A stretch of 18,509 bases of DNA from a virus, in IMG/VR virus record IMGVR_UViG_3300039321_000032, positions 1 through 18,509 of that record, one strand, 5' to 3'. This document shows positions 1 through 14,356 of the stretch, piece after piece. The position numbers and the translations under genes were made by a program. The notes under the pieces were generated by a model. It made no database searches. It saw nothing but the letters and a program-made list of their open reading frames with translations, and was not told where the DNA came from. How positions within the stretch are numbered: position 1 is the stretch's first letter; every line of letters starts with the position of its first letter.

Positions 1-5
1 GTGAT

Positions 6-167
6 ATGGAAAGTGATATTAAAGAAACAATAAAACAAACAGAAGAGTATATTAAAGAATTGGATAAATGAATGCTCGAATGTAAAGAGGCTACTAAAAG
101 ATTTGGTGATATTATAGACAAAGTATTAAAAAATAAAGATTATATGTTTATTTCTAAATTTGATTAA
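6..167 (+). CDS. hypothetical small protein (53 aa from the ATG at 6; the frame stays open to the left window edge, so it may be 5'-truncated)
   Basis: Absent from the ORF track because an in-frame TGA (69-71) splits it. Reading TGA as Trp gives MESDIKETIKQTEEYIKELDKWMLECKEATKRFGDIIDKVLKNKDYMFISKFD. TAA at 165-167 lies 2 nt before the next ATG. Confidence 0.4.
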
Positions 168-169
168 TT

Positions 170-310
170 ATGGATGATCATTTATTTAAAAAGCTTGAAG
201 AACTAGAATACAGAATAGTTCAACTAGAAAACCAGAATAGAGGTTTAGTTTGGGAAGAAGTAGAAGAAATGCCAAAACCAGAAATTACTAATGCAACATA
301 TACTGATTAA
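170..310 (+). CDS. hypothetical small protein (46 aa, coiled-coil-like)
   Basis: ATG 170 to TAA 308-310 gives MDDHLFKKLEELEYRIVQLENQNRGLVWEEVEEMPKPEITNATYTD. Tightly packed between its neighbours (2 nt and 1 nt gaps). Below the ORF-track size cutoff. Confidence 0.4.
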   Translation: MDDHLFKKLEELEYRIVQLENQNRGLVWEEVEEMPKPEITNATYTD

Positions 311-311
311 T

Positions 312-455
312 ATGAAATACCAAACCTATAAAGTATGTATAAATGGAGTGTATTATGTATATGTAATACCAGAAAATAGTAAGTTTTTAGTAGACTTACA
401 AACAGGAGATTTAATACCTAAAGAAGATGATAAATTATTTGAAATGATGGAATAA
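312..455 (+). CDS. hypothetical small protein (47 aa)
   Basis: ATG 312 to TAA 453-455 gives MKYQTYKVCINGVYYVYVIPENSKFLVDLQTGDLIPKEDDKLFEMME. Followed 5 nt later by a strong hairpin. Confidence 0.4.
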   Translation: MKYQTYKVCINGVYYVYVIPENSKFLVDLQTGDLIPKEDDKLFEMME

Positions 456-459
456 ATGA

Positions 460-487
460 AAATAGGAGGGCATAAACCCTCCTATTT
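460..487. terminator. hairpin between convergent genes (putative bidirectional intrinsic terminator)
   Basis: Perfect 11-bp inverted repeat AAATAGGAGGG (460-470) / CCCTCCTATTT (477-487) with a 6-nt loop. It sits between the plus-strand stop at 455 and the minus-strand HNH stop (TAG 482-484), which lies inside the right arm. Confidence 0.6.
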
Positions 488-805
488 CTGTTTAAATCTT
501 TGATAATTACTAACCGATGAATGAATAGCTTTATGACAAACTGAACATAATGTTATTAAATCTTCCAAATGTTCCTGCTCATTATATAAATTCTCATACG
601 TCTTATGATGTACCGATAAAGACCTATTTCCGCCTTCCTGAACACATCAGTTACAAGTTTGGCAGTGGTAGTTATCCCGCAATAATATTTGCTCTCTAAT
701 GGCCTTAAAATCCTTTGATCTTATATATCTTTGGTACTTTAAATATTCTTCACTTCTTACTTTCTTCTTTGTCTTATGAAGCAGTTTACTTGATTTGGAG
801 TCCAT
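482..805 (-). CDS. HNH endonuclease (107 aa)
   Basis: ATG at 805-803, one in-frame TGA at 647-649, TAG stop at 482-484. Translation: MDSKSSKLLHKTKKKVRSEEYLKYQRYIRSKDFKAIREQILLRDNYHCQTCNWCVQEGGNRSLSVHHKTYENLYNEQEHLEDLITLCSVCHKAIHSSVSNYQRFKQK. It shows the CxxC...VHH...N...LCxxCHxxIH pattern of HNH nucleases. Missed by the ORF track because of the TGA. Confidence 0.8.
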
Positions 806-807
806 AA

Positions 808-1260
808 TTATATAATTGTAAATTTCTGTCTTCTCTGCAAACCCTCTTTATTCTTCAGTCCTAAATGAATTCAACTAGCTATTCCATTTCTAGGTTTCTC
901 ATAAATAAGTTGATCAAAATCATACTTTTCAATAGCTTCAGTAATCCAAACCTGAAATTCTTTCATTTGGCCGTTACTTGGAATTATATCTGCTGCATAT
1001 CCTGTTAGATGGGCAGATGTCAAAGATCCTCCTACAGCTTTATTAAGCTCATTACATCTATAACCTGAATTCACACTTATTGCTGGATTCCCCAACCGAT
1101 TAACATCACAATACTCTGCCCAATCACTTCTTAATGGGTCTAAAAGTTTCTCGACTAACTCTATAAGGTGTTCAGTAATCTCTTTATTTGGAGTATTATC
1201 TATCTTCTTAATAGAAGCTGTATCAGATCTTGTTAATTCACTAATAGTAAAATATTTCAT
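808..1260 (-). CDS. endolysin, LAS/M15-family zinc peptidase (Peptidase_M15_3/VanY-like), 150 aa
   Basis: Track ORF 871..1260 stops at TGA 871-873. Reading it as Trp adds 20 residues up to TAA 808-810 (...PRNGIAS-W-IHLGLKNKEGLQRRQKFTII). SAHLTGYAAD matches the SxHxxGxAxD zinc motif, and the extension restores the C-terminal W-x-H third ligand. Confidence 0.85.
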
Positions 1261-1421
1261 TATTTAATAATATCTTTAAGCATAGTATAACGGTAAAATA
1301 AATGACATCCTGCACCAAGTGCTATGAGTACTAATGTAATCCAAAATGGAATTACTTTTACCATTAAAAATACTAAGATTATAATTACTATTGCTATTAA
1401 ATATTTCATCCAATATTTCAT
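1260..1421 (-). CDS. putative holin (53 aa, two predicted transmembrane helices)
   Basis: MKYWMKYLIAIVIIILVFLMVKVIPFWITLVLIALGAGCHLFYRYTMLKDIIK has two hydrophobic helices and a charged C-terminus. Its TAA (1260-1262) overlaps the endolysin ATG (TAATG). Below the track cutoff. Confidence 0.55.
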   Translation of the reverse strand: MKYWMKYLIAIVIIILVFLMVKVIPFWITLVLIALGAGCHLFYRYTMLKDIIK

Positions 1422-1424
1422 AAC

Positions 1425-2078
1425 TTATTTATTTAAAATTATACTTACTTTAATTCCTGTATCTCTTAGTTTTACTCAAGTATCAACTGGCATCTCATTA
1501 TCACAATAAGATAAGCCTAAAATTCCAATATCTCTATCTTCTGATTTTAAATAGAATATTGCAATCTTATTAACATCATTAGATTTAAATGTATAATACA
1601 TTCTTCTATCTAATTCCTTTATATCTTCAACATCTCCAAATCATCCTCCTTTTTTAGATGTTTCCAATATAAATAAATAATCAGATAATAGGAAGTCTTT
1701 ATAGTGACTTGAAACTGGAGCAACTCCAGGTTCTGTTTCTTCACTATTCATAATTCCATAAGTGAATGGTAATCCTCCTAATCCTGAAGTGCCATTATGA
1801 TACTCAATAACTCAAGCTCTATCTGCATTCGTATCATTTAAAAGGTCTTTAAGGATATATCTAACCTTAAGATCCGCTTCTTGTCGTATTACTTGATTAG
1901 TATTATGAACTGTTTCTATATAACTTACAACTTTATCATATATTATTCCTGGATTAGTACTTATAATTATTACATAAGAAATAAATATAAATCCAAATCC
2001 ACCTTTAATTATTTTCCACAGTCCATATTTATCTACTCATTCTAATACCTTTCCAAACCAGTTTAATTTATTTTCCAT
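1425..2078 (-). CDS. N-terminally membrane-anchored protein of unknown function (217 aa), directly upstream of the holin
   Basis: ATG 2078-2076 to TAA 1425-1427, open only if four TGAs (2037-2039, 1812-1814, 1641-1643, 1476-1478) are sense. MENKLNWFGKVLEWVDKYGLWKIIKGGFGFIFISYVIIISTNPG... contains a transmembrane helix. No standard-code ORF of 60 aa or more appears on this strand. The only track ORF here (1324..1509, +) is antisense low-complexity. Confidence 0.7.
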
Positions 2079-2503
2079 TACATATTATCAGAACAAGTAC
2101 CCAGAGTGTTGTCTACAGCTAAATCAACTCTAACAAATACTCCAGTGCAAATATCTTTGAACTTCTGATAAAATGGAGTAAAAATTAAAGGATAAGAAAT
2201 ATCAACTTCTGGATATTGGTTATTAAATCGGTTAATTATATTAGTTAATGCTAATATTCCAGCTGATTGCTCTTCAAGCTGATTATTATCAGTCTCATCC
2301 CATCTTGCTATAAAATAGAGATTTAAAGAGTAAGTAATAGTATCCTCATCCATATTAAATGTATTTGGAGTTATATAAAATACATTATATTCAATAGTTG
2401 GGATACTATTAAGTTCATATATATCCTTACTTCCTACAAAATTAATATTGGGTTCTTCAAGAGCACAAGCTTTTAAATTGTTTATTAATTCAAAATACGT
2501 CAT
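2078..2503 (-). CDS. hypothetical virion protein (141 aa; possibly head-tail joining, by position)
   Basis: Track ORF 2078..2605 trimmed to the ATG at 2503 (MTYFELINNLKACALEEP...), 1 nt after the upstream TAA at 2505-2507. Its TAA 2078-2080 overlaps the next ATG. Confidence 0.6.
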   Translation of the reverse strand: MTYFELINNLKACALEEPNINFVGSKDIYELNSIPTIEYNVFYITPNTFNMDEDTITYSLNLYFIARWDETDNNQLEEQSAGILALTNIINRFNNQYPEVDISYPLIFTPFYQKFKDICTGVFVRVDLAVDNTLGTCSDNM

Positions 2504-2504
2504 T

Positions 2505-3188
2505 TTACTTACTCTTTTTATTGTTATCACTTGAAGGGAAATCATAAGCTCTTTGCAGAGGACCTTCACAAGAATTATATCTCCAACCTTTACCTCTAGC
2601 TCCACCTAACCAAATAGTGCAAGATGAACTTGAATACATATTTGGATACATATCTTTAAGAGGTTTATAAGAATACAATTCAGGAAAATCATTATAATAT
2701 GTAATTACCCAATTTTGCAATCTAGTTTTAAAGAAATCTGCTTTATCTCTATAATACTTCTTAATAAGATTAACTTGATTAATATCAGAAGTTAAATCTT
2801 TCTCATCATCAGTCCTCATAACCCCAAAATTACTCAGCTTAAATGAGATGGGTATAGTAATCTCACTTAATACTTGATAAAGTAAATAAGGCTGAATATA
2901 GTAATCTAGCAATTCTTTATATCTATGATTTTCTGGGTCATCTATTGAAGTAGGATCATAAATAGGAGGTTCTATTGGATGAACTGGTTTATTTGGATCT
3001 TTTCAATCAATTACTAATTTCTGAATCTTTTCTAAGAGCTTAGTTCCAATTAATGACTGAAGCTCAATATCTTGTGCAAGTTTAATTGCTGACTGAAGAT
3101 ATTTACCAGAAACATTATTGTCTAAATTGGATTCTGATTTTATATAATCTTCAGATATTAATAGTACATTTCTATAATTATTTTCCAT
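2505..3188 (-). CDS. hypothetical virion protein (227 aa; possibly a head-tail adaptor, by position after the portal)
   Basis: Track ORFs 3003..3188 and 2505..2912 share a frame and are joined by TGA 3003-3005 plus 30 open codons (...KLVID-W-KDPNKPVHPIEPPIYDPTSIDDPENHRYKELLDYYIQ...). The ATG overlaps the portal stop (TAATG). Confidence 0.7.
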
Positions 3189-4270
3189 TATTCAACTTGT
3201 TTAGTATCAGCTTCATTAAGGCTAAATGGTGAAATTGTGATTGAATTCTGCATTCCAAAGATCTTATCAAATGAATCACAAATCTCTTTCTGAATAGGTC
3301 TAATCATAGTTCTATTATAAAGCTTGAATGAAGATTCAAATTCTTGCTCATTAAAACCAGTTGAATCTGAGTTAATTCCAAATAAGTTAGGATTAGCTCT
3401 GAAGGCACAGAATATTTGATCTCTGGTTCTCTCAGATAATGATTGATATTTCTCATCAAAATCATCAGAATCTAATCTTTCAATAGTAGTCTTATTTGCC
3501 TCATCTGCATTATATGAAATCAATATTCTGCCAGCATTCTGATAACCAGAGAACTTCTCATTAATATTCCTCTCAATCTCCTCTCTAATTTCATCTGTAG
3601 GTTCCCCATTATTAAAGTTAATAATAAGATTACCCATAAATCCATTATTGATGTTATTTAAATGGAATTCATTAATATTTTTCTCAGTTTCACAAGATAA
3701 AATAGCAGCTCCATAAACAGGAATAGGATATACTCCTCTTGTTATATAACCTTTATTATAAAATATACTAGCTGGATTTTCATCCCCATCTCCAAATTTT
3801 GGATATTTTATAGCTTTTACAGACCAAGCTGTCCAATCAGTTGCATAATATAATATATCATTCTTTTCGCTTGACCTTACATTCATAAAATCAATATGAT
3901 ATATCTCTGCAACTCTTCCGAGCATATCTCTAATTACTTGGATAGCATAACCTCCAAATATCATCTTATCAATAGTGATTTTTCTCATTATATCAACTAT
4001 TGTTTCACCTTTCTTGTTTACAACTACTTCAAATCCTGGAGCATTACATTTAACATCGTTACCAACAATAAAGTCAGCAGAACCATTAATAATGGATTGG
4101 AGAGTGGCAACATTTAAATATAAATCCCATAGATATAATGGATATTTGTTATCTTCTCCCCACATTACATAATCTTTTCCCCTCACTTTAGTTTCTGTAG
4201 GTAATACGATATTACTTGCAATAAATGGATCAATAGCACTTAACTGAACTTTTGTTTTATTTTCGCTCAT
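3188..4270 (-). CDS. portal protein (360 aa)
   Basis: Size and portal-like sequence blocks (...YGAAILSCETEKNINEFHLNNINNGFMGNLIINFNNGEPTDEIREEIERNINEKFSGYQNAGRILISY... and ...RANPNLFGI...). No TGA; all 4 Trp are TGG. TAA stop. Confidence 0.75.
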   Translation of the reverse strand: MSENKTKVQLSAIDPFIASNIVLPTETKVRGKDYVMWGEDNKYPLYLWDLYLNVATLQSIINGSADFIVGNDVKCNAPGFEVVVNKKGETIVDIMRKITIDKMIFGGYAIQVIRDMLGRVAEIYHIDFMNVRSSEKNDILYYATDWTAWSVKAIKYPKFGDGDENPASIFYNKGYITRGVYPIPVYGAAILSCETEKNINEFHLNNINNGFMGNLIINFNNGEPTDEIREEIERNINEKFSGYQNAGRILISYNADEANKTTIERLDSDDFDEKYQSLSERTRDQIFCAFRANPNLFGINSDSTGFNEQEFESSFKLYNRTMIRPIQKEICDSFDKIFGMQNSITISPFSLNEADTKQVE

Positions 4271-4649
4271 AACTTACGTATGTATTAGGTTTGTCGTATT
4301 GATAATTATTATTCTCATAATCTCCAATTCTTATTAATCCTGTTCCCAATATAGGTATTGGTTTACCAGCAACTAATATCTGAGTACCATTAGTAAGAGT
4401 ATTATTATATGTAACCAGAATAACTGGATTGCCATATAACTCTGATCTAAATGGATTGTTTACATCAACTATAACTTGAAATTTATTTGGATTAGTAAAT
4501 AAAATATATTGATATTCACCGTCTCTCATTCCTTCTTGAAGTGTAATATCAAACTTATAGTAGATATTCTCAGAATAATTCTGATTTTCAAGATTAAATG
4601 TATAAACTTCTTTAGTAGTTGTATTTTGCATTAATAAAGTATAATTCAT
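4257..4649 (-). CDS. hypothetical protein (130 aa), first gene after the 4650-4802 intergenic region
   Basis: Intact track ORF with a TAA stop and a 14-nt overlap with the portal start. No recognisable motif. Confidence 0.6.
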   Translation of the reverse strand: MNYTLLMQNTTTKEVYTFNLENQNYSENIYYKFDITLQEGMRDGEYQYILFTNPNKFQVIVDVNNPFRSELYGNPVILVTYNNTLTNGTQILVAGKPIPILGTGLIRIGDYENNNYQYDKPNTYVSYERK

Positions 4650-4724
4650 ATTTTACAGCAATTTACATTAGTTTTACATATCTTTTTCTTAAAATATAAA
4701 CCAATTTACTAATGTATTAAAATA

Positions 4725-4752
4725 ATTAAAGGAGACCTAAGCCTCCTTTAAT
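4725..4752 (-). terminator. stem-loop downstream of the fibre/LRR block (putative intrinsic terminator)
   Basis: 10-bp stem ATTAAAGGAG (4725-4734) / CTCCTTTAAT (4743-4752) with an 8-nt loop. On the minus strand it is followed by TTATTTTAAT. It lies 51 nt after the LRR-C stop at 4803. Confidence 0.5.
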
Positions 4753-4769
4753 GTCAAGTTTTTTACTCA
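4750..4769 (-). promoter_or_regulatory. conserved 20-nt intergenic motif, copy 1 (minus strand TGAGTAAAAAACTTGACATT)
   Basis: Identical 20-mer at 14239-14258. Contains a TTGACA hexamer. Weaker similarity continues on the minus-strand 5' side (TTTATTT..CTTAG.TAC). Confidence 0.4.
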
Positions 4770-4802
4770 CTCAAAGTACTAAGAAAAAATAAAAATAGAC
4801 AA

Positions 4803-5774
4803 TTAGTTTGAACTTGCTAAAGTTCAGTTTTTAGATGTAGCTAATGATTTCTGTTCTTCAGTAAGTGCATTATAAATGTTAGTATAAAAAGTTAAAGTTT
4901 TGGTATCCTTTCCAGTTAAATCACTAACATTTGTAATAATATCAGTTACTGATTGACTATTTAGTGCTCTAAAATTTGCTAAATTCATACTTTTATCAGC
5001 TCCTTCAACACCCCCAAAATAAGTAACAATAGTATTAGTAGATGCACATATTGAAGTTTTATTTAGATCTCCTGTTAATGTGCAATTATTTAATTTAATT
5101 TTTCCTACTGTTGTAACACCCTCATTATATGAACTAAAGTAATTATATAAAGATAGTTGTCCATTAATAACTTCAATTTCAGGAACATTACTGCTAACAG
5201 AATAAAAGAAAAATTGTAAAGATGATACACCAGTATCAACTTCATTTATCACTTTTAAAGTAGTTGGTAAATTAGAAGCATTAAAGAATGTTCTTGCTGC
5301 ATAATTTCAACTAGAGGATAAGGTATTAATTAATTCTAAATTATTTAGTGTGCCTTGAAATCCAGAAAATGCATACGAATCCCCAACACTAGTTCTTATA
5401 TTATCAATATATATATTATATGTGTTTTGGAAGGCATATGATGCGTTATATACTTTAGACAGATCAATATGACTTGATATATCTATTGTAGATATGAAAT
5501 TAGTCCCATCAAATCAATAATTTATATTATCTGGAAGAGAATATTCTATATTATTATATTGCTCTTGTGTCATACTAGAATGTGCAAATGTTAATCCATA
5601 ATCATTTAAATTAATCTTTCCTCCACCACCTCCAGAAATCTGTCCTATCTTATCAGCATAGCTTCTAAAGGTATCGGAATCTGATACAGCAACACCTTTA
5701 GCTACAATAGCATCTTTAATGGCACTCTTAGTACCTTCAAGATACGTTAATTTATCAGAAATTGTATTTGCCAT
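4803..5774 (-). CDS. BspA/DUF285-like leucine-rich-repeat tail protein, paralogue C (323 aa)
   Basis: Track ORFs 5514..5774 and 4824..5252 are in one frame, joined through TGAs at 5514-5516, 5307-5309 and 4824-4826, ending at TAA 4803-4805. Repeats of the YAF/MF...L type are present. The C-terminal block ...DLTGKDTKTLTF...LTEEQKSLATSKN-W-TLASSN is paralogous to 6671..7792 and 10419..11372. Confidence 0.8.
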
Positions 5775-5775
5775 A

Positions 5776-6429
5776 TTAGATTACCTCACCATTAATTGTA
5801 TCAAGAGTAGTTGAAATATTACCAATCTGAGCTTGAATTGCTGAGATTTCTCCATCTAACTCTGTCATCTTTGTATTATATGCATCTGTAGTTACATAGT
5901 TTGATAACTCACTTTTATCTGCTTTAAGTGCAACTTCATCTTTAGTAGCTAATCCAGATACATCAGGAATCTTATTCTCTACAGTTGTAAGCTCTTCTTT
6001 AGTAGCAAAATCACTAGTATCAGGAATTTCTGCTTTAGTTGCATAATTACTTAAATCTACAGATAGTTGCAAACCTTCTCCATTTCTATGTAAAGATAGA
6101 GGTTGATTAGCTTGGAATACTTCCATCTTAGAAGTTTCTAACTCCTCAACTTCCCCTTTAAGATTAGTAATCTCTGTATTAATTGGAACAAGCTTAGCAT
6201 CTATAGATTGATCTACTAAAGGAGGAACTTGATCTTCAATACTTTCTGTTACTTTAGTATTAATTAACTCTTCTGCTTTCTCCTCAGAAATGTAATTACC
6301 TTTAGGTTGGAATCTTTCATCTGCTTCAATCTTAGTATAAGAACCAACAGGAAGTTGTCCAGATTCAATACCACATTTCTTACTAACATAGAAAGTTTGT
6401 GTATTTTTAGTATTCTTAAGTATAATCAT
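5776..6429 (-). CDS. tail fibre protein B (217 aa, coiled-coil with repeated Y-A-T-K motifs)
   Basis: Intact track ORF with a TAA stop. LQLSVDLSNYATKAEIPDTSDFATKEELTTVENKIPDVSGLATKDEVALKADKSELSNY resembles LSVDLSTYATNDKV... in fibre A. Confidence 0.75.
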   Translation of the reverse strand: MIILKNTKNTQTFYVSKKCGIESGQLPVGSYTKIEADERFQPKGNYISEEKAEELINTKVTESIEDQVPPLVDQSIDAKLVPINTEITNLKGEVEELETSKMEVFQANQPLSLHRNGEGLQLSVDLSNYATKAEIPDTSDFATKEELTTVENKIPDVSGLATKDEVALKADKSELSNYVTTDAYNTKMTELDGEISAIQAQIGNISTTLDTINGEVI

Positions 6430-6431
6430 AA

Positions 6432-6668
6432 TTATCTAACTTTTATTGATTCCTCATACTCTTTAGAAGCTTTAATAGCTAATTCTTTATATTCAGCATC
6501 TTTATCTAAAGAGACTTCTGATAGATGCTCTAAATCGCAACTTAAAGGACAGATACATTCGGTAAATGAACTATATGTTTTAATATCCATTCCTTCTTTA
6601 TAGTTAGTAAGTACATAACCTTCTTCTGGACTAACTACTTTATATTTTTCTTTAATTTCAATTTTCAT
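6432..6668 (-). CDS. small conserved protein, paralogue B (78 aa; possibly a fibre assembly or adaptor factor)
   Basis: Track ORF 6432..6695 trimmed to the ATG at 6668, 2 nt after the LRR-B TAA (6671-6673). EEGYVLTNYKEGMDIKTYSSFTECICPL aligns with DEGYFITSYKEGDDIKEYSASTILYCPL of 10198..10419. Confidence 0.6.
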   Translation of the reverse strand: MKIEIKEKYKVVSPEEGYVLTNYKEGMDIKTYSSFTECICPLSCDLEHLSEVSLDKDAEYKELAIKASKEYEESIKVR

Positions 6669-6670
6669 AA

Positions 6671-7792
6671 TTATGCAACTCGATTTATACTTCAATTCTT
6701 TGAAGCTATTAATGATTTCTGTTCATTTGTAAGTTTATCATATGCAGTAGATTTTAATGATATACTTGTATAAGAAGCTACTGCTGTGCCAATAGATTCT
6801 GCTATAGTTTGTAATGAATCCGTAGATAGATTTGGAGATTGTGCAAAATAAAGAATTCCTCCTTTAGTTAAACTCTCTCCTAATCCATTTAAAGCTCCTA
6901 CAGTAACTAATTCTGGACAATTTGCAGCAAAACTAGTACAATCTGTAACAAGATGACAATCTATTTCTGGTGTAGCTGTTAATCTACTACAAGTACTAAA
7001 CATATAGCTTATATCTGTAATTCCAGTAAAGGTAAAATTACTTGGAATAGTTGTTAGATATAATGCTCTACGAAACATATGATTACAATCTCCTTTAAAG
7101 GGAATATTAATCGTTATATTATCTATATTAGTAGCTCCATCAGCTGTATCTGCAAATGCCCATTTTGGATCTACTAATACAAGATTTTGAAAATTATTCA
7201 TTACAGAGAAATCATTATTATCTATTTTTACTCCAATAAATAAATAATTTGCACTTACTTCTTTAGTAGTTGTAGGTATTTTAACATTAGATAAAGTAGC
7301 ACTATGTATTGTTTGACCCCAAAATTGAGATTCACTAGACCATTTTCCATATGCTTCATTAAGATTAGTAATCTCCTGGTTATTTAGATCAAAATGAGAT
7401 GTGTCAAAAAACCCTCCTTTTCTACTTAAATCTCCACTATTTAACTTTACATCTGCATATGTTTGAGCAGAACCTATAATACTACAAAGAGGTACACCAT
7501 CTATATTAAGGGCTAATTCACTTAAATCAGCAGTGAAGCTAATTACTGTAGAATTAGAACCAGATCCTCTACCCATTCAATCCCTTTGTATATCATTTAT
7601 AGTTCCATCATAACTGCTAAATACATAACTGCAAGGATCAACTATTGTAGTACCTTGAGGAACTGGATTAGCAACTGTAACCATCTGTGGATTACAAGGA
7701 TTGATAGGCCAGACTTTGGTACTGCCGACATAAATAGCAGTACCTTGTCTGTCACCTACATAAAATGTTTTTAAATCATCTCTAATATTCAT
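6671..7792 (-). CDS. BspA/DUF285-like leucine-rich-repeat tail protein, paralogue B (373 aa)
   Basis: Track ORFs 7577..7792 and 6692..7576 are in frame, joined by TGA 7577-7579. A second TGA at 6692-6694 extends the end to ...EQKSLIASKN-W-SINRVA, with TAA at 6671-6673. Confidence 0.75.
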
Positions 7793-7793
7793 A

Positions 7794-10196
7794 TTATTCT
7801 ACAATTAAATATTGTGTATTAGGATCTTTAGTTGATAAACCATCATACTCTGATTGAGTTAGAACAGTAATAGTATTTATTTGAGGTTGGGTTCCAGTTC
7901 CAGCTTCAATATAGTTTCCAGCAGGCTGAATACCTAAATCTGATAAACTCTTATTGCCAGATAACTCAACAGAATTAATCTGAGGTTTATTTGTTAACTG
8001 AGTATAGTCAGTAGTCCCTCCACCTCCAGATATTTCGAGATTACCTTCTCCTAAAATACTTTCACCATTAATAGTCTTTATATTAGTCCCAGAGACTAAT
8101 TGCTCTTGATAACTATGATAACTAGTATCTGCTGATACTCCAGTTGGAGTAATAGTAGTTTGAACCAAAGTATGATTAGCTGTAGTACTTTCAAAATGGA
8201 AAGTAGCTTGAATATTTTCTCCTGAAACAAAACATACTTCTGGAGCTGCTATATCACCATAACCTAGAATATTTACATAATAAAGCTCAAATGGTGTTTT
8301 ATTAGCTATAGCATTCTTAACAGCAGCGAAATCTCCAGAAAGATGAGTAGTGGAATTTATAAATAGAAATGGAATATTAGAACCACTTTCAATTTCTATA
8401 TTACCTTCTCCAAGTAAAGACTGACTATTGATTGTTTTGATATTAGTTCCACTTACAAGTAAATCTTGCTTAGTAGCCATCTCTTTATCAAGTGAATCAA
8501 TCTTATTTCCATCTTCTTCTTGCTTTGTTTTAATAATTGATATGTCTGAAGTATTAGTTGCTACTTGAGTAGATAAAGATTCTACCACAGAAGAATCAGC
8601 TTTACCAGCAAGTTCTGTTTTTGTTGCATAATCTCCTACAGGCTGTTTAGTAGCAAGCTGCTCATCAACATAAGTCTTATCTGCTTTACCTGCTAAATCT
8701 CCAGAAACCTCTGCTTCAGTTACAAAGTTAGAATCATTAGTAAGCTCACTAACTTTAGTTGGAATATCACTCTTTAAAGCATAATCTCCTTTATCTTGTT
8801 TTAGATCTATTTTTCCTTCTAAAGAAGTTTCTAATGTATTAACCTTATCATTAGTTGCATAAGTAGATAAATCTACAGATAATTGAGTCTTATCTTCATT
8901 AAAAGCTAATGGAGCTTGAGGAGCAAATACTCCTTGTTTTTCCTCAAGTTTGGCATCTACTTCTTCTTTAGTATATCCTTTATTAATAAGATCAATCTCA
9001 GTAACTTTAACAGTCATATTACCATTATTTACTAAGATTGCATTAATAACTACTAATACACCATTATCTTGGAAATAATAGCCATATAAATCAATAGTTT
9101 CAGGATGTTCAATAGTTGCAACAGGAATAACTATAATATCACCTTTATATGTAATCTGGCAGAATAAATAGAAGTCCAGATTAGTTCTAATAAAGTCATA
9201 GATATGTTTCTGTCTTACAGGATCATTCTCATCTAAATTAAGTAAGAAATGATTCTCAAAAGCAGAGATTACATTATCTATAATAGATATATTCTTTCCT
9301 GCTGTAAGCGTTCCCTGTTTTGAAGCTATCTCTTTATTAATAGCTGTATTTAAAGCATCAATTTCAGCTTTGGTATATTTATCTGCTAATTGTGCGTATA
9401 GAGGGCCATTAACAATACCAGCTTGGTTAGTCTCTGTATTATATATTGGAAGTTCAACTGCTTCTCCAGTTTGATTACCAAATACAGGAGCTAAAGTAAC
9501 TTTAGATGGGACTGATTGAATATTAATGGCAGGTACGATTGAAGCTGCTCCAGATAATTCAGTTCCATTTAAAGATGGTTTGTTACGAATAGTATTATAA
9601 TCTGCAGAAATAGTATTCTCTTCAATTACTATACCATCACCTTGGTTTAATTTATTCTGTTTAGAATTTATTGCACTTTCAGTAGCTTCTTTTGTAAGAT
9701 AATTATCTTCAACTCATTTTTCAGTAGCATATCCATCTAAGCTACTAATAAACCCACTATCATTAGTTAATTGTGAAGTTTTTGTTGGTATCTCAGATTT
9801 ATCAGCTTTATTGGCAACTGCATCTGAAATTTCAGTTGTAACCTCTTCTTTAGTTGGATAATCAGCTAATCGTTCAGTTATCTGATTATCAATATTTTCA
9901 GCACTTGGAATAGTACTCTTTATTTGCTCTAACTCAGAATTAATAGTAACAATATCTTCAGATGACGCTAATCCCAACTCTTCTGAAGTCATATTACCAT
10001 TTAACTCAATACTATTGATCTCAGGTTTATCCTGAAGATCAAAATAGCTATTAGTAGCTAACTGAGAACCATCCATAACCTTAACTTCATCATCCTTGTC
10101 AATAACAATAACTTTAGTCACATTTGACTTATCTATTGTTTCGACTTCAAGGACATTAAGATAAGGAAGAATTGTCTTTTCAGTTTCGTTTGCCAT
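7794..10196 (-). CDS. tail fibre protein A (800 aa)
   Basis: Track ORFs 9714..10196 and 7794..9017 share a frame. TGA 9714-9716 (...GYATEK-W-VEDNYLTKEA...) plus 232 further codons with no TAA or TAG (checked line by line) join them. Contains fibre motifs KPEINSIELNGN, NKPSLNGTELSG, KPQINSVELSGNKSLSDLGI and VSGTNIKTING.S.LGEGN. Confidence 0.75.
8028..8102 (-). repeat. intragenic repeat, copy 2 (QLVSGTNIKTINGESILGEGNLEIS)
   Basis: Second copy of the unit at 8388-8462. The two copies bracket a 95-aa segment. Confidence 0.7.
8388..8462 (-). repeat. intragenic repeat, copy 1 (LLVSGTNIKTINSQSLLGEGNIEIE)
   Basis: 25-aa unit repeated exactly 360 nt (120 aa) downstream in the gene. The shared DNA core attaccttctcc occurs in both copies. 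Confidence 0.7.
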
Positions 10197-10197
10197 A

Positions 10198-10419
10198 TTA
10201 TTTATTTTTATAAGATTCCTCTTGTTCTTTTAAATATCTTTCATTTGTTTCTGCATCAATAACCCTATAAATAGATATATCAAAGGTTAAAGGGCAATAT
10301 AAAATAGTTGATGCACTATACTCTTTAATATCATCACCTTCTTTATATGAGGTAATAAAATATCCTTCATCAGAGTATAACTTTATAAATATGCTAGTTT
10401 CAATATGTAAATGTTCCAT
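10198..10419 (-). CDS. small conserved protein, paralogue A (73 aa)
   Basis: Intact track ORF. Its ATG overlaps the LRR-A stop (TAATG at 10417-10421), and its TAA lies 1 nt before the fibre A ATG. Paralogous to 6432..6668. Confidence 0.6.
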   Translation of the reverse strand: MEHLHIETSIFIKLYSDEGYFITSYKEGDDIKEYSASTILYCPLTFDISIYRVIDAETNERYLKEQEESYKNK

Positions 10420-11372
10420 TATGCTAATATCCAGTTTTTATTAGTAGCTATTGCTTTCTGTTCATCTGATAATTTTGCCAGATTGGTAGCTCCTAATGTT
10501 AAAGTTTTGCTATTCTCCCCTGTTAAATCAACTAATGCATTAATAACAGACATTAAAGAATCAGTAGTAAGATTGGTACTTGCTGATAGATATAATCCTG
10601 CTCTAAGCTCACCGTTTACTGTAAGATTAGTAATTCCACCACATTTTGAAAATATAGGATTTATTGAACCTTCTTGATTTGTGTATGATGGAATGTTTAA
10701 TGTTACGTCTGTTAATCTAATGCAATCTCCAAACATATTAGTAGTAGTTACTAATTTAGGAGCATCTAAATTAAGTGTTTTCAGGCTATTATATCCAGGT
10801 AAGGCACCTCTGCTAAACATATTAGACCCATCTGTTAATTCAGGCATTGGAATAGTGAATGATGTTAAATCAGCACATTCTGTAAACATATATCTGCCAT
10901 CTTCTAATTTAGGCAATTGCATAGTGAACTCCTTAATGTTTGATCTTTGACATTTATATCTTCCATCAACTAAATTTTCTCAACCTACAACATTTGCAGG
11001 AACAGATGTTCCCGTAAACCTATATAAATTAACTACAGCTTGCGTAATATCATAAGTTGAAGAAGTTGGCACATTAATAGTAGCTTCAACTTTCTCCATA
11101 ACATCATAATCAGAGTCAGGAAGAATCTCTATTGGTCCATTCTGAGTAATTGTAATTGCTTTGGAAGCTTGAACTGTAGGAACTACTACATCAACAGATA
11201 CATTTACCTTAGACATTCCATCATATCCCTCATCTGGCAGTACTTCAAACTCTGCATTTTGAGTATATTCTACTGATTTTTCTTGTAACTTACATTCAGC
11301 AGCTTTAATTAAATCTAAATTTTTAGTTGTAGTATTTTTAGCTACTGGTTCTGATGTGAATACTATTGCCAT
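10419..11372 (-). CDS. BspA/DUF285-like leucine-rich-repeat tail protein, paralogue A (317 aa)
   Basis: Track ORFs 10980..11372 and 10419..10922 are in frame, joined by TGA 10980-10982 plus 19 open codons. N-terminal tandem units (...EFEVLPDEGYDGMSKVNVSVDV / ...PIEILPDSDYDVMEKVEATINV) precede the LRR repeats (MFTECADLTSF, NMFGDCIRLTDV). The C-terminus ...SDEQKAIATNKNWILA uses TGG for its Trp. Confidence 0.8.
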
Positions 11373-11425
11373 ATTATTTTTCTATAAAATATAAATTATT
11401 CATTATGTGGTATATAAACAAAATA

Positions 11426-11453
11426 AGGGGCAAGTAAATTAATACTCGCCCCT
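11426..11453 (-). terminator. intrinsic terminator after the head-module operon
   Basis: Minus-strand stem AGGGGCGAGTA/TACTTGCCCCT (one A/C mismatch, 6-nt loop) followed by TATTTTGTTTAT. It starts 11 nt after the TAA at 11464. Confidence 0.65.
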
Positions 11454-11463
11454 CTTTCTGTTA

Positions 11464-11988
11464 TTAAGCACCTACAACGCTTTGGATAGCTTCTGCAGAT
11501 AACTCATAAGGATAAGAATCTGAATCTGTTGAAAGTGTCAGAGTATAAGCATTCTGATCACCTTTAGCAGTACCAGTAACACCCGTACCAGCGGAAGCGC
11601 TTACATAATCATCTTTACCTAAGAACCAATACTTACCATTGCTATCTTCAACAACAACTGCAAGCTGACCAATTGATAAAGCTGCAATCTCTACTCGTTT
11701 TGCTGTTTCCATCTTTGTAAATACAAGAGCAAGCTCATTACTTACATAATTAACACCAGCACTTTCATCTACATTTAAAGTTGAGGTTAGAGAACCAGTA
11801 GCCTTTCTAAATTGGTAGTTATACCATTTAGCTGAAGACTCAAGAGTAATAGCTGAAATCATATTGCTCTCAGGATCAACCGTTACACTTTTAACATCTG
11901 CATACTGGGTAATCCATACCTGTTTGATTCCACCCAATGAAGGTTGGCAATCAAGTGTGATTCCTGCGATAGTTATTAAACAAGCCAT
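11464..11988 (-). CDS. abundant structural protein (174 aa; major tail or head-associated protein, function uncertain)
   Basis: Intact track ORF directly after the capsid gene and before a terminator. Higher GC than its surroundings, no TGA, TAA stop. Confidence 0.7.
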   Translation of the reverse strand: MACLITIAGITLDCQPSLGGIKQVWITQYADVKSVTVDPESNMISAITLESSAKWYNYQFRKATGSLTSTLNVDESAGVNYVSNELALVFTKMETAKRVEIAALSIGQLAVVVEDSNGKYWFLGKDDYVSASAGTGVTGTAKGDQNAYTLTLSTDSDSYPYELSAEAIQSVVGA

Positions 11989-12028
11989 AATTTCAATATC
12001 ATTTAGAAGTTAATAAAATCTATTGAAA

Positions 12029-12934
12029 TTAAGCCTTGGCGCCTAATACTACTTCGTCAGGGAAAGCAACTTGTACACCAGCGTTAAATTCAATAGCTAA
12101 TCTGAACTCGCGGAAATCCTGTGAATACCACAATTCGAATTTCTCTTCATCGTTCATCATATCTACACCATAGAAGAAGTTCTTGTCTAACTGACCAGCA
12201 ACAATCTTATCAGTTCCATTAAGACCATTAACAGCAATAACCTTAACCTGTGAACCAGGAAGATAAATCTCACCATTAAGGCTCTCTCCGCTATAGTGGA
12301 AATAGTTCTTCTCAACAAGTTCATTTACGAACTTACGGAACATATCGGCACCAACAAGAATCGAAGCACCATCAAGAACCTTCTCAGGAATTGCATTATA
12401 AACTGCCATAATATCAGTATAGGCAGATTCTCCAGCAATTTCTACATCTACAGTACCATTATCAGCAGCAAGAATCTTAAGCAGACCATCAAAATACTTC
12501 AAGTTATTAGTTTCTGAAGCCGTATCACCCTGCCAGATAGCTACCTCAATAGCCTCTTTTACGTTCTCTACAACAGCATTTACGAAATCCTCTTCAAAAG
12601 GAAGAGTCTTCTGACCAGCGGCTACCTTAACTGCATACTGAGTCCAGTATTTCAGCATAGCCTTATCGCAATATGCCATATTAATCTTAATATTACCAGT
12701 CTTAAGAATTCTCTGAGAAAGAGTCTGAGTTCCAGCCTCATCCCAACCACAAGTAAGACCATCACCGAACTGAACATCGGTAGATAACAGGTTAAGAGCA
12801 GCATCAGTTTTAATATCTGTCTGAAGATTAAACAAACTTGCACTCTTAGCTTTTAAAACCGCTTCCTTAATAAGAGGGAGACGTCTTTGCTCCACATAAG
12901 CAGGAAGAGTTGTCATTACAGGACTATTTGCCAT
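12029..12934 (-). CDS. major capsid protein (301 aa, HK97-fold type by size, position and sequence character)
   Basis: Intact track ORF following protease and scaffold. All 4 Trp are TGG, no TGA, TAA stop. Confidence 0.8.
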   Translation of the reverse strand: MANSPVMTTLPAYVEQRRLPLIKEAVLKAKSASLFNLQTDIKTDAALNLLSTDVQFGDGLTCGWDEAGTQTLSQRILKTGNIKINMAYCDKAMLKYWTQYAVKVAAGQKTLPFEEDFVNAVVENVKEAIEVAIWQGDTASETNNLKYFDGLLKILAADNGTVDVEIAGESAYTDIMAVYNAIPEKVLDGASILVGADMFRKFVNELVEKNYFHYSGESLNGEIYLPGSQVKVIAVNGLNGTDKIVAGQLDKNFFYGVDMMNDEEKFELWYSQDFREFRLAIEFNAGVQVAFPDEVVLGAKA

Positions 12935-12955
12935 AATTATTTAAAATTTTATAAA

Positions 12956-13561
12956 TTAACCAATAAAGTTTTTAAGCTTTCTATCTATTTCTGCTATTCC
13001 ACTTATAGGAGCAGTTGTTTTATTTTCGAGTGTTTCCTCTGCTGAAAAAGCAGCACTCATCTTACTCATTTTTTCTACAGTCTTTTCAGTAGCTTCTGAC
13101 TTTCCTTCAAGTTCTGCTACTTTCTTAACAAGCTTATCTACAATATCATAGAGCTCATTAATTTCGCGATGAATAGCGTCGATTGCATCAGTCTCAGTTT
13201 CTTTAACACCGTCTGTTTCAACAGCAGGATCAGCAACTTCCTCAGCTTTTACTCTCTTAGTTCCACAAGCAGCATCAACCTCAACAGTTCTCATACCCTC
13301 ATCTGGATCAACTTCAGCTTTAGGATCAGTAATGGACTCTACTTTACCGTCTTTAACAACAATAGTTTTGCCATCTTCGGTAACATACTCACCATCAGCA
13401 GCAGGTGCATATTCGCCATTTTCATCAGCTACATAAACATCCATACCTTCTTTCAGATCCTCATCCGAATCCCAAGTAAGCACAGCCTTGTCAGTTTTAA
13501 CATCACTGAACTTTGCAAGCATCTTAGCTAACTCAAGTTTAATTTTTGTGAATTTACTCAT
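12956..13561 (-). CDS. scaffolding protein (201 aa, acidic, coiled-coil C-terminus)
   Basis: Located between the protease and capsid genes. Asp/Glu/Lys-rich low-complexity sequence (...DPKAEVDPDEGMRTVEVD... / ...REINELYDIVDKLVKKVAELEGKSEATEKTVEKM...). Confidence 0.65.
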   Translation of the reverse strand: MSKFTKIKLELAKMLAKFSDVKTDKAVLTWDSDEDLKEGMDVYVADENGEYAPAADGEYVTEDGKTIVVKDGKVESITDPKAEVDPDEGMRTVEVDAACGTKRVKAEEVADPAVETDGVKETETDAIDAIHREINELYDIVDKLVKKVAELEGKSEATEKTVEKMSKMSAAFSAEETLENKTTAPISGIAEIDRKLKNFIG

Positions 13562-13567
13562 AATTAA

Positions 13568-14161
13568 TTAATGTTTAACTCTTTTTATTTTTCTCAACAT
13601 TTTTTGAATCTCTTTAAGTTCCTCATATTCATCAGATTGTCTTTCTAAAGTAAACAATCCCTCAATAGATAACCCTTTAAACTTTCCAGCTTTAATTGCA
13701 TCCCATATAACAGGATTATTTACTTTATAAGTAGCAAATAATGAACCATCTGGACAATCAGCAAATTCAACTGGATTAATTCCTCTATCTATATCTTTAA
13801 CATATAGTTCTTGAAGAATTATTCCAGGAATTACTGAATCTTCCAAATGTTCAATATTTACATCAGTAGTTCTCTTATCATACATCATTTTTTCAGCCAT
13901 TAAACGGAGAGTTTCTTTATCATATTGAATATAATATTCTCCGTTTTTACTATCCCGTCTAAATATAGGTATATCACATACCATTAAACAAGAAGTAACT
14001 ATATGTTTTTCTTCATCCATCGAGAACTTCTGAGATTCCCCAAAAGCAAGCCAATTAACTTGGGTTGCAGGTTTACTGGTCAATGCTACGAACTCTATTC
14101 CATCACAATCATCAGCAATAATTGCTTGATATAATGGAAGATCATTATACATTTTTTCCAT
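13568..14161 (-). CDS. prohead protease, XkdF-like (197 aa)
   Basis: First gene of the head module. The layout ...DVNIEHLEDSVIPGIILQELYV...GSLFATYKVNNPVIWDAIKAGKFKGLSIEGLF resembles XkdF-type phage serine proteases, recognised by eye only. Confidence 0.65.
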   Translation of the reverse strand: MEKMYNDLPLYQAIIADDCDGIEFVALTSKPATQVNWLAFGESQKFSMDEEKHIVTSCLMVCDIPIFRRDSKNGEYYIQYDKETLRLMAEKMMYDKRTTDVNIEHLEDSVIPGIILQELYVKDIDRGINPVEFADCPDGSLFATYKVNNPVIWDAIKAGKFKGLSIEGLFTLERQSDEYEELKEIQKMLRKIKRVKH

Positions 14162-14238
14162 TTTTTATTAATATATAAGCTATTTTAAAAATGTAATATT
14201 GTTACAATCTTTTATTTTTATATATTTATATACTATCA

Positions 14239-14258
14239 AATGTCAAGTTTTTTACTCA
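14239..14258 (-). promoter_or_regulatory. conserved 20-nt intergenic motif, copy 2 (candidate promoter of the head module)
   Basis: Identical to 4750-4769. On the minus strand, TTGACA is followed by 16-18 nt and then TATATA/TATAAA, about 55-60 nt upstream of the protease ATG at 14161. A degenerate third copy (TGAGTAAAA-N4-TGACA) lies at 14337-14354. Confidence 0.45.
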
Positions 14259-14336: not shown

Positions 14337-14356
14337 TGTCAGAAATTTTACTCACT

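What the first reader, a model, noticed from the sequence alone, without database searches (positions are those of the whole stretch)
808..1260. The endolysin is catalytically incomplete unless TGA is suppressed
Under the standard code the protein stops at ...PRNGIAS (129 aa). That product keeps the SxHxxGxAxD motif (SAHLTGYAAD) but lacks the C-terminal His. In LAS/M15 peptidases (VanY/VanX/Ply500 type) this His is the third zinc ligand and typically follows a Trp. The His appears two codons after TGA 871-873 (W-I-H-L-G). Active lysin therefore depends on TGA decoding, a direct mechanistic link between recoding and lysis timing.
Basis: partly seen in the sequence, partly recalled or inferred. 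Interest (0 to 1): 0.7.

Follow-up and report, generated by a model that had tools for sequence, protein, structure and literature searches.

The report
Phage lysin needing TGA read as tryptophan
The phage cell-wall-cutting enzyme is indeed interrupted by a TGA codon just before an essential zinc-binding histidine, but this is one of about 47 such codons spread over half the genes of a gut phage that reads TGA as tryptophan, a phenomenon already described.

Summary
On the minus strand, ATG 1260 opens a Peptidase_M15_3 (M15A, LAS-fold) endolysin. It meets TGA at 873-871 after 129 codons and continues in frame for 20 more codons to TAA 810-808. The TGA sits on the invariant Trp of the (W/F)xH motif, and His132 (867-865), the predicted third zinc ligand, follows. 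All full-length homologues keep W-x-H. Standard-code relatives use TGG there. The 129/127/126/104-aa database entries all stop just before a conserved Trp; two (P0029, P0096) were confirmed at DNA level as code-11 mis-calls.

The TGA is not lysin-specific. A roughly 30.2-kb composite genome has 47 in-frame TGAs in 20 of 37 genes, and no gene ends in TGA. The codons aligned opposite TGA in relatives are mostly TGG, then TAT and TTT. The lysin's TGA share (0.44) equals the family mean, and the holin has none. TGA is avoided in capsid, portal and helicase-like genes. It is favoured in tail fibres, homing endonucleases and a membrane protein upstream of the holin.

No tRNA, release factor or Trp-tRNA synthetase was found. 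Relatives of the same lineage use standard or TAG-recoded code and carry Bacteroidota-type markers. This is a new member of the known class of stop-codon-recoded gut phages (Borges et al.).

The parts
808..1260 (-). Endolysin gene. It gives 150 aa when TGA is read as Trp. The protein is a single-domain Peptidase_M15_3 / M15A zinc peptidase of the LAS fold.
   Evidence: Pfam PF08291 at 3e-14 and PHROG 894 endolysin at 2e-30. The AF2 model of a 149/150-identical proxy has pLDDT 96.4. The best Foldseek hit is 1LBU, followed by hedgehog, VanY, MepA and LdcB structures.
871..873 (-). In-frame TGA, codon 130, the Trp of the (W/F)xH motif.
   Evidence: This column is an invariant W in 35 homologues. 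It is TGG in standard-code relatives and TGA in all 30 low-GC relatives' loci.
865..867 (-). CAT, His132, the predicted third zinc ligand.
   Evidence: It is invariant. The motif assignment comes from the M15A literature (PMC5025407, PMC13461873). It lies in strand 130-134 of the model.
988..1017 (-). The SxHxxGxAxD motif, S82 to D91. H84 (1011-1009) and D91 (990-988) are the first two zinc ligands.
   Evidence: The HMM alignment to 1LBU places H84 on H154, D91 on D161 and R68 on R138.
1260..1421 (-). Putative holin, 53 aa with two hydrophobic helices. Its stop overlaps the lysin start (TAATG). It contains no TGA.
   Evidence: Sequence read. Family TGA/TGG counts are 0/21. There is no Pfam or PHROG match, so the function is inferred from size, hydrophobicity and position.
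1425..2078 (-). A 217-aa protein with an N-terminal hydrophobic helix, directly upstream of the holin. It uses TGA for 4 of its 6 Trp codons.
   Evidence: Family TGA share is 89 of 120, or 0.74. Function is unknown; the only match is PHROG 30125, of unknown function.
482..805 (-). HNH endonuclease gene, the last gene of the long minus-strand operon, with one in-frame TGA at 649-651.
   Evidence: PHROG 119/144 HNH.
459..488 (-). Terminator-like hairpin (13-bp stem followed by a T-run) that closes the minus-strand operon.
   Evidence: This is a consensus scan only.

Best explanation
The window is part of a roughly 30-kb tailed gut phage that reads TGA as tryptophan throughout its genome (genetic code 4). 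Its endolysin is a small single-domain M15A (Peptidase_M15_3, LAS-fold) zinc peptidase. Zinc is held by H84 and D91 in SxHxxGxAxD and by H132 in W130-x-H132. W130 is written as TGA. If TGA terminates, the ribosome releases a 129-aa fragment that lacks the Trp and the third zinc ligand, and that loses three of the five sheet strands in the models; this fragment should be inactive. If TGA is read as Trp, the full 150-aa enzyme is made.

The same dependence holds for about half of the phage's genes, so the lysin is an ordinary member of a recoded genome and not a dedicated lysis switch. The host is most likely a standard-code Bacteroidota bacterium. TGA is kept out of the helicase-like gene of the opposite-strand, presumably early, operon, out of the abundant capsid proteins and out of the holin. 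This suggests that TGA decoding is conditional or less efficient than TGG decoding.

Shown here: the gene anatomy, the family assignment, TGA = Trp, and the genome-wide, non-uniform use of TGA. Inferred: loss of activity in the truncated form, the standard-code host, and any effect on timing. Unknown: what decodes TGA.
For: Anatomy and family.

W130 and H132 are invariant. Standard-code homologues use TGG at W130: the Bacteroidales chromosomal copy L003, the IMG/VR phages L028-L038, and L049-L051.

TGA means Trp. A 98%-identical relative has TGA at W105 where the window has TGG. Across the genome, the codons aligned opposite TGA are TGG 50, TAT 14, TTT 9 and no Gly codon, matching the profile seen opposite TGG.

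Genome-wide use: most minus-strand genes of the window carry in-frame TGA. In the composite genome there are 47 TGA and 69 TGG, 20 of 37 genes carry TGA, and no gene stops at TGA.

Non-uniform use: permutation p = 0.011. Capsid, portal, helicase-like and holin genes together have 0 TGA and 21 TGG against 47 and 48 elsewhere (Fisher 8e-6, a grouping chosen after seeing the data). The same pattern holds across the family.

Structure: the 150-aa model has pLDDT 96.4 with strands at 130-134 and 145-149. The 129-aa model has no strand at 117-121, and its last nine residues have pLDDT about 61. Foldseek gives 1LBU as best hit, then hedgehog, VanY, MepA and LdcB structures, which are LAS-type proteins by established knowledge. 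H84, D91 and R68 align with H154, D161 and R138 of 1LBU.

Host and lineage: the nearest lysins from cultured phages are from Bacteroides fragilis phages, at 48-52% identity. The portal matches only Bacteroidota phages. Syntenic relatives use standard code (L039, L049, L050; L050 has an Arm-DNA-bind_5 integrase and a faint BACON match in a tail protein) or TAG recoding (L040, binned with Bacteroidaceae). Here 54% of genes carry TGA. The published figures are 26-71% for phages of standard-code hosts and about 90% for phages of hosts that share the phage's code.
Against: No suppressor tRNA, release factor or Trp-tRNA synthetase was found. This holds for the composite genome and for every locus scanned from its close relatives, with ARAGORN and with Rfam at both thresholds. 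How a standard-code host would read up to 11 TGAs in one gene is therefore unexplained.

Several genes upstream of the terminase also carry TGA, so 'only late genes are recoded' is not clean. The host was not identified directly: there is no CRISPR or prophage evidence for this family, and the only MAG links are binned 20-30-kb contigs. The composite genome is stitched from three 95-100% related contigs. Zinc binding, muralytic activity and inactivity of the fragment were not measured, and AF2 models of truncated proteins do not measure stability.
Confidence: 0.75

Rival explanations
1. The host itself reads TGA as Trp (a natively code-4 bacterium). The TGA in the lysin is then an ordinary Trp codon with no regulatory meaning, and no phage-encoded decoding device is needed.
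For: No tRNA, release factor or Trp-tRNA synthetase was found in any relative. TGA is never used as a stop. TGA occurs on both strands and in genes upstream of the terminase. GC content is low, 28-31%.
Against: By established knowledge, the known code-4 bacteria are wall-less Mollicutes or insect endosymbionts, yet this phage keeps a conserved peptidoglycan peptidase with a putative holin gene just upstream. TGA use is strongly non-uniform: 0 of 21 Trp codons in capsid, portal, helicase-like and holin genes. Only 54% of genes carry TGA, against about 90% reported for phages matched to their host's code. Syntenic relatives use standard code or TAG recoding and carry Bacteroidota-type markers. 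The lysin and portal affinities are to Bacteroidota phages.
Confidence: 0.15
2. One reading: the TGA in the lysin is a dedicated timing device. Lysis is held back until TGA suppression switches on, and the lysin is the controlled step.
For: The full-length enzyme cannot be made without TGA decoding. The TGA at W130 is conserved in all 30 recoded relatives' loci. The helicase-like gene of the opposite-strand operon avoids TGA (1 of 64), and a membrane protein next to the holin is TGA-rich. Borges et al. reported preferential recoding of lysis-cassette genes in two other phage lineages.
Against: The lysin's TGA share (0.44) equals the family mean, and the holin has none. Tail, tape-measure, terminase and endonuclease genes are equally or more dependent on TGA. 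Trp codons rarely flip between close relatives (about 11%), so conservation of this one TGA is expected by descent. No switch gene is present. By established knowledge, endolysins normally accumulate before lysis and timing is set by the holin.
Confidence: 0.1
3. The TGA is a real stop, or is read differently. The options are that the 129-aa protein is the product (or the gene is a pseudogene), that TGA encodes Gly (code 25) or selenocysteine, or that the extension arises from occasional readthrough only.
For: Many public gene calls list 129-, 127-, 126- or 104-aa products.
Against: Every truncated entry ends exactly before a conserved Trp, and the DNA of the two checked (P0029, P0096) continues TGA-xH-... 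in frame to TAA. The 20-codon extension is conserved at protein level in homologues that use TGG. No Gly codon is aligned opposite TGA anywhere. Genes with 5-11 in-frame TGAs cannot rely on rare readthrough.
Confidence: 0.02

Closest known systems
Stop-codon-recoded gut phages (TGA to Trp, code 4; TAG to Gln, code 15) of standard-code hosts, as surveyed by Borges et al. (bioRxiv 10.1101/2021.08.26.457843). In size and apparent host the closest groups are their small 'Garnet/Amethyst'-type clades (about 34 kb; the Garnet prophage sits in a Prevotella genome).
   Same: Low GC. TGA is absent as a stop. In-frame TGA occurs in structural and lysis genes. A helicase-like replication gene stays in standard code. 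A homing endonuclease and a membrane protein of the lysis cassette are heavily recoded. Close relatives use other codes. The share of recoded genes (54%) lies within their 26-71% range. Lack of a detectable suppressor tRNA is common there too: only 35% of their code-4 genomes had one.
   Different: I could not test membership of any named clade, because no terminase tree or reference genomes were available. Here the lysin itself is not preferentially recoded, the capsid genes and the holin avoid TGA, and no tRNA was found in any locus scanned from the family.
M15A (Peptidase_M15_3) phage endolysins: Burkholderia phage ST79 peptidase M15A (PMC5025407), Proteus phage LysPM1 (PMC13461873), and the type enzyme, Streptomyces albus G zinc D-Ala-D-Ala carboxypeptidase (PDB 1LBU).
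   Same: Small single-domain enzyme with the SxHxxGxAxD and (W/F)xH motifs, the H-D-H zinc triad, a conserved Arg (R68 aligned with R138 of 1LBU) and the LAS fold.
   Different: Sequence identity to 1LBU in the Foldseek alignment is only 21%. There is a long N-terminal helix (residues 26-54) and a 10-residue insertion that some homologues lack. The motif Trp is encoded by TGA. Activity and bond specificity are untested.
Endolysins of cultured Bacteroides fragilis siphoviruses (B124-14, Barc2635, vB_BfrS_UZM3 and others) and of crAss-like phages cr114_1 and cr4_1.
   Same: These are the nearest lysin homologues from cultured or named phages, at 45-52% identity over residues 1-133 or 1-149.
   Different: The rest of the genome is unrelated at detectable level: the major capsid protein has no tblastn match in 50,697 GenBank phage records and the window has no megablast match.

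Membership tests
Peptidase M15A / Pfam PF08291 Peptidase_M15_3 (LAS superfamily) | Match to the family HMM above the curated cut-off | tested here: met
   53.5 bits against a cut-off of 23.2, E = 3e-14. The match covers residues 3-105 only; the C-terminal part of the profile was not aligned.
Peptidase M15A / Pfam PF08291 Peptidase_M15_3 (LAS superfamily) | SxHxxGxAxD motif carrying the first two zinc ligands | tested here: met
   S82-A-H84-L-T-G87-Y-A89-A-D91. S82, H84, G87, A89 and D91 are invariant. H84 and D91 align with H154 and D161 of 1LBU.
Peptidase M15A / Pfam PF08291 Peptidase_M15_3 (LAS superfamily) | (W/F)xH motif carrying the third zinc ligand | tested here: met
   W130-I-H132 is present only if TGA 873-871 is read as Trp. 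It is invariant in 35 homologues. The motif definition comes from PMC5025407 and PMC13461873.
Peptidase M15A / Pfam PF08291 Peptidase_M15_3 (LAS superfamily) | Hedgehog/DD-peptidase (LAS) fold | tested here: met
   AF2 pLDDT 96.4. Foldseek best hit 1LBU (E = 7e-5, TM 0.53), then hedgehog N-domains, VanY, VanXY, MepA and LdcB.
Peptidase M15A / Pfam PF08291 Peptidase_M15_3 (LAS superfamily) | Zinc-dependent peptidoglycan hydrolysis | not testable with these tools
   This needs purified protein, a zymogram or turbidity assay, and EDTA/Zn add-back.
Stop-codon-recoded (code 4) phages of standard-code hosts | In-frame TGA in many genes at positions where homologues have Trp, and TGA not used as a terminator | tested here: met
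   47 TGAs in 20 of 37 genes, and none of the 37 stop codons is TGA. The codons aligned opposite TGA are TGG, then TAT, then TTT.
Stop-codon-recoded (code 4) phages of standard-code hosts | Phage-encoded code-change machinery (tRNA with UCA anticodon, release factor, Trp-tRNA synthetase) | tested here: not met
   ARAGORN found nothing in the window or in any other locus scanned, including all close relatives. Rfam gave no tRNA match at gathering threshold or at E <= 5. Pfam gave no release-factor or synthetase match on ten proteins (eight of the early region, plus the membrane protein and the holin). This is a frequent feature of the class but not a universal one (35% of code-4 genomes).
Stop-codon-recoded (code 4) phages of standard-code hosts | Host uses the standard code | tested here: inconclusive
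   The evidence is indirect only: Bacteroidota affinities of the lysin and portal, relatives with standard or TAG codes and Bacteroidota-type markers (a Bacteroidota-type integrase; a faint BACON match), and non-uniform TGA use. No CRISPR or prophage link was obtained.
Stop-codon-recoded (code 4) phages of standard-code hosts | Lysis genes preferentially recoded (the feature behind the lysis-timing hypothesis) | tested here: not met
   Lysin 0.44, equal to the family mean of 0.44. Holin 0 of 21. Only the neighbouring 217-aa membrane protein is enriched, at 0.74.
Phages of natively code-4 hosts (for example Mycoplasma or Spiroplasma phages) | Near-uniform use of TGA across genes, and a host without peptidoglycan | tested here: not met
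   Heterogeneity p = 0.011, with 0 of 21 TGA in capsid, portal, helicase-like and holin genes. 54% of genes are recoded against about 90% for host-matched phages. A conserved peptidoglycan peptidase with a putative holin gene just upstream is present.

The most novel reading that the evidence does not exclude
This widespread family of roughly 30-kb phages writes about 40% of its Trp codons as TGA, yet no locus scanned from it carries a tRNA, release factor or synthetase, while its relatives and gene affinities point to standard-code Bacteroidota hosts. If the host really terminates at TGA, decoding must come from something not yet described for recoded phages. The candidates are a protein that disables RF2 or alters host tRNA-Trp, a non-canonical RNA missed by ARAGORN and Rfam, or dependence on a co-resident element. 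One possible co-resident element is the class of large TGA-recoded phages (contigs up to about 168 kb), one of which is joined to a member of this family at a short tail-fibre segment in a probably chimeric contig. The avoidance of TGA in capsid, holin and helicase-like genes would then reflect incomplete or delayed suppression.
Probability: 0.15. Interest if true: 0.7.

Novelty: new member of a known kind. Interest (0 to 1): 0.3.

Why it matters
For annotation, the practical point is that public protein sets hold many 104- to 129-aa truncated copies of this lysin, some mislabelled 'putative chitinase' or 'YcbK'. Anyone mining gut viromes for endolysins under code 11 would retrieve fragments predicted to be inactive.

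For biology, the case is a clean textbook example of a catalytic residue block placed behind a reassigned stop. It adds a small, tRNA-less, TGA-recoded lineage with standard-code and TAG-recoded relatives to the known set. That is useful material for asking how recoding arises and how TGA is decoded without a phage tRNA. It does not by itself establish a link between recoding and lysis timing.

Tried and rejected
Megablast of the whole window against GenBank phages found nothing, and tblastn of the major capsid protein found nothing either, so no named relative is available.

I used window genes without TGA for the look-up, and P0001 (149/150 identical, T81I) for the model.

The single genome-contig scan, with the capsid protein, returned only two MAG-binned 20-26-kb contigs at 47-48% identity. 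They were useful for comparing genetic codes but not for identifying the host.

I followed a 148.6-kb IMG/VR contig that carries a family member, hoping it was a prophage in a host contig. It turned out to be about 118 kb of a large TGA-recoded phage joined to the 30-kb phage inside a tail-fibre gene at a short shared segment, so it is probably a chimeric assembly. No tRNA was found in the 20-kb stretches seen from those large phages.

The profile search of PDB sequences aligned only the H/D motif region of 1LBU, not the C-terminal His. The H132 = H197 equivalence therefore rests on the motif literature, invariance and the Foldseek fold match.

Model coordinates were not exposed, so zinc-site geometry could not be measured.

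Rejected readings: Gly (code 25), selenocysteine, frameshift, pseudogene and assembly error. See the rival explanations.

The base following TGA (A 21, G 15, T 10, C 1) does not differ clearly from that following TGG, so I make no claim about a readthrough context.

Full report
**1. The observation**

Reading the minus strand, ATG 1260-1258 opens a frame that reaches TGA at 873-871 after 129 codons (...PRNGIAS). The frame then stays open for 20 further codons (I-H-L-G-L-K-N-K-E-G-L-Q-R-R-Q-K-F-T-I-I) to TAA 810-808. The SAHLTGYAAD motif lies at codons 82-91, and CAT for His132 lies at 867-865. Both the 129-aa and the 150-aa forms match Pfam PF08291 Peptidase_M15_3 at 53.5 bits against a cut-off of 23.2. 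The 150-aa form matches PHROG 894 'endolysin' at 2e-30. One detail needs adjusting: the TGA is itself the Trp of the W-x-H motif.

**2. Whether the extension is real**

A search of 5.8 billion proteins returned 427 homologues. In an alignment of 35 full-length homologues at 49-93% identity, W130 and H132 are invariant, as are S82, H84, G87, A89, D91 and R68.

The list also contains many entries of 129, 127, 126 and 104 aa. Each of these ends exactly before a conserved Trp, at position 130 or 105. For two of them I fetched the DNA: it continues TGA-(I/V)-H-... in frame to TAA. These short entries are therefore gene-calling artefacts made under code 11.

Homologues in standard-code genomes translate straight through, with TGG at this Trp. 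These are:
- a Bacteroidales chromosomal copy, L003, with GC 55%;
- eleven IMG/VR phages with GC 34-59%, many of which use TGA as their true stop;
- three further phage contigs, L049-L051.

**3. What the enzyme is**

The AF2 model of P0001 has pLDDT 96.4. P0001 is 149/150 identical to the window protein; the tool would not accept the W-substituted window sequence. The model's central sheet has strands at 61-65, 89-94, 117-121, 130-134 and 145-149. Foldseek against the PDB returns 1LBU first. 1LBU is the Streptomyces albus G zinc D-Ala-D-Ala carboxypeptidase, the M15A type enzyme. Hedgehog N-terminal domains, VanY, VanXY, MepA and LdcB follow; by established knowledge these all belong to the LAS superfamily.

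HMM alignments place H84 on H154, D91 on D161 and R68 on R138 of 1LBU. Published work on M15A phage lysins defines SxHxxGxAxD plus (W/F)xH, with an H-D-H zinc triad: H77/D84/H119 in ST79, H63/D70/H104 in LysPM1, and H154/D161/H197 in 1LBU (PMC5025407, PMC13461873). The equivalence of H132 with the third ligand rests on this motif, on its invariance and on the fold match. I could not measure distances because model coordinates are not exposed.

A model of the 129-aa form has neither C-terminal strand. It shows no strand at 117-121, and its last nine residues have pLDDT about 61. The truncated product therefore lacks the motif Trp and the third ligand, and it loses most of the sheet. That it is inactive is a strong inference, not a measurement.

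**4. What TGA means, and how widely it is used**

The window has GC 31%. Under code 11 its minus-strand genes are fragmented, while with TGA read as sense they fuse into long frames. Examples are a 919-aa tape measure with 5 TGAs, an 800-aa fibre protein, and a gene running off the window's right end with 6 TGAs; in the full contig that last gene encodes 1118 aa with 11 TGAs.

Window 3568-18509 is 100% identical to an ENA contig, L005. Joining L005, window 1-3567 and a 95%-identical relative (L001) gives a circular composite of 30,156 bp. It has 37 genes, of which 20 carry at least one in-frame TGA. There are 47 TGA and 69 TGG codons, and no gene ends in TGA.

TGA behaves as Trp. A 98%-identical relative writes W105 of the lysin as TGA where the window has TGG. 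Genome-wide, the codons aligned opposite TGA in relatives are TGG (50), TAT (14), TTT (9) and CAT (5). That is the same profile as opposite TGG, and no Gly codon appears. This excludes code 25, selenocysteine, frameshifting and assembly error.

**5. Whether the lysin is special**

It is not. Across all family loci, the TGA share of Trp codons is as follows.

| Gene or group | TGA share of Trp codons |
|---|---|
| All genes | 0.44 |
| Lysin | 0.44 |
| Putative holin | 0 of 21 |
| Protease, scaffold, major capsid and 174-aa genes | 0 of 34 |
| Portal | 0.19 |
| 573-aa helicase-like gene (opposite-strand operon) | 1 of 64 |
| Two fibre genes | 0.89 each |
| HNH endonuclease | 5 of 5 |
| GIY-YIG endonuclease | 15 of 16 |
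| 217-aa membrane protein upstream of the holin | 0.74 |

Within the single composite genome, heterogeneity among genes gives a permutation p of 0.011. A grouping chosen after seeing the data gives Fisher 8e-6.

The TGA at W130 is present in all 30 recoded relatives' loci, and W47 is always TGG. But Trp codons flip in only about 11% of aligned positions at this divergence. That conservation is therefore expected by descent and is not evidence of site-specific selection.

**6. Decoding machinery and host**

ARAGORN found no tRNA in the window or in any other locus scanned, including every close relative. Rfam gave no tRNA match at gathering threshold or at E <= 5. Pfam searches found no release factor, synthetase or deaminase in ten proteins tested: eight from the early region, plus the 217-aa membrane protein and the holin.

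Evidence on the host is indirect.
- The closest lysins from cultured phages are from Bacteroides fragilis siphoviruses, at 48-52% identity, followed by crAss-like phages.
- The portal's only matches in 50,697 GenBank phage records are Bacteroidota phages.
- A syntenic relative, L050, uses standard code. It carries an Arm-DNA-bind_5/Phage_int_SAM_5 integrase and a tail protein with a faint BACON match, both Bacteroidota-associated by established knowledge.
- L049 and L039 also use standard code. L040, binned with a Bacteroidaceae MAG, is TAG-recoded.

One lineage with all three codes, 54% of genes recoded, non-uniform TGA use and a conserved peptidoglycan peptidase argue for a standard-code, walled, Gram-negative host and against a Mollicute-like code-4 host. 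For comparison, Borges et al. report 26-71% of genes recoded in phages of standard-code hosts and about 90% in host-matched phages. How TGA is decoded remains unexplained.

**7. Comparison with what is known**

Borges et al. (bioRxiv 10.1101/2021.08.26.457843) described TGA- and TAG-recoded gut phages of standard-code hosts. They reported recoding concentrated in structural and lysis genes, standard-code replication genes, heavily recoded homing endonucleases and lysis-cassette membrane proteins, closely related phages with different codes, and detectable suppressor tRNAs in only 35% of code-4 genomes. They proposed that recoding gates late and lytic gene expression.

The present phage fits the class and is not represented among GenBank phages. 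It is therefore a new member of a known kind. What it adds is modest:
- a clear case in which the reassigned codon sits inside the catalytic motif;
- a family in which no tRNA was found in any locus scanned;
- avoidance of TGA in the capsid genes and the holin.

**8. Verdict**

Interest is low to moderate at 0.3. The main open question is what decodes TGA in this family.

Noticed in passing
window 1425-2078 (-): A 217-aa protein with an N-terminal hydrophobic helix sits directly upstream of the holin. It uses TGA for 4 of its 6 Trp codons (89 of 120 across the family), which makes it the most TGA-biased gene of the lysis region. This parallels the 'strongly recoded TM protein' that Borges et al. 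reported in Agate phage lysis cassettes. Its function is unknown.
   Followed up: partly
window 11464-14161, 3188-4270 and 1260-1421 (-); L001 11274-12995: The capsid module (protease-like, scaffold-like, major capsid and 174-aa genes), the portal, the holin and the 573-aa helicase-like gene avoid TGA almost completely. This suggests that TGA decoding is less efficient or later than TGG decoding.
   Followed up: yes
window 482-805 (-); L001 13187-13675 and 7423-8085; L007 17982-18503: Homing-endonuclease genes (HNH, GIY-YIG, NUMOD3) come and go between otherwise 95-99% identical genomes. The HNH (482-805) and GIY-YIG genes write almost every Trp as TGA.
   Followed up: partly
window 4803-5774, 6671-7792 and 10419-11372 (-): Three fibre-like proteins end in the same C-terminal motif (..T/S-x-E-Q-K-S/A-L/I-A-x-x-K-N-W..). 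Relatives of these genes match DUF285 and LRR_5. They look like exchangeable receptor-binding modules.
   Followed up: no
L025/L047/L109 (IMG/VR 3300045988_175865, 148.6 kb); window 7706-7938: A 148.6-kb contig consists of about 118 kb of a large TGA-recoded phage (related contigs reach about 168 kb) joined to a 30-kb family member inside a tail-fibre gene. The join lies at a segment of about 230 nt that is 90% identical to window 7706-7938. It is probably a chimeric assembly.
   Followed up: partly
L040 (CAVCAD010000156.1), L039, L049, L050: Syntenic relatives of this phage use other genetic codes. L040 is TAG-recoded, with 8 in-frame TAGs in each of two tail genes. L039, L049 and L050 use standard code, with TGA as a rare stop codon in L049 and L050. 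L050 carries a Bacteroidota-type integrase next to its lysin.
   Followed up: partly
P0026-P0043, P0055-P0068, P0096: Public protein collections hold many truncated copies of this lysin (104-129 aa) produced by code-11 gene calling. Some are named 'putative chitinase' or 'YcbK (DUF882)'.
   Followed up: yes
window 459-488 (-): A strong terminator-like hairpin (13-bp stem) sits between the end of the minus-strand operon and the convergent plus-strand small genes (6-455).
   Followed up: no
window 6-167 (+): In this small plus-strand ORF the in-frame TGA is immediately followed by ATG (code 11 calls a 31-aa ORF from 72). Whether the TGA is read through or the gene simply starts after it cannot be told from the sequence.
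   Followed up: no
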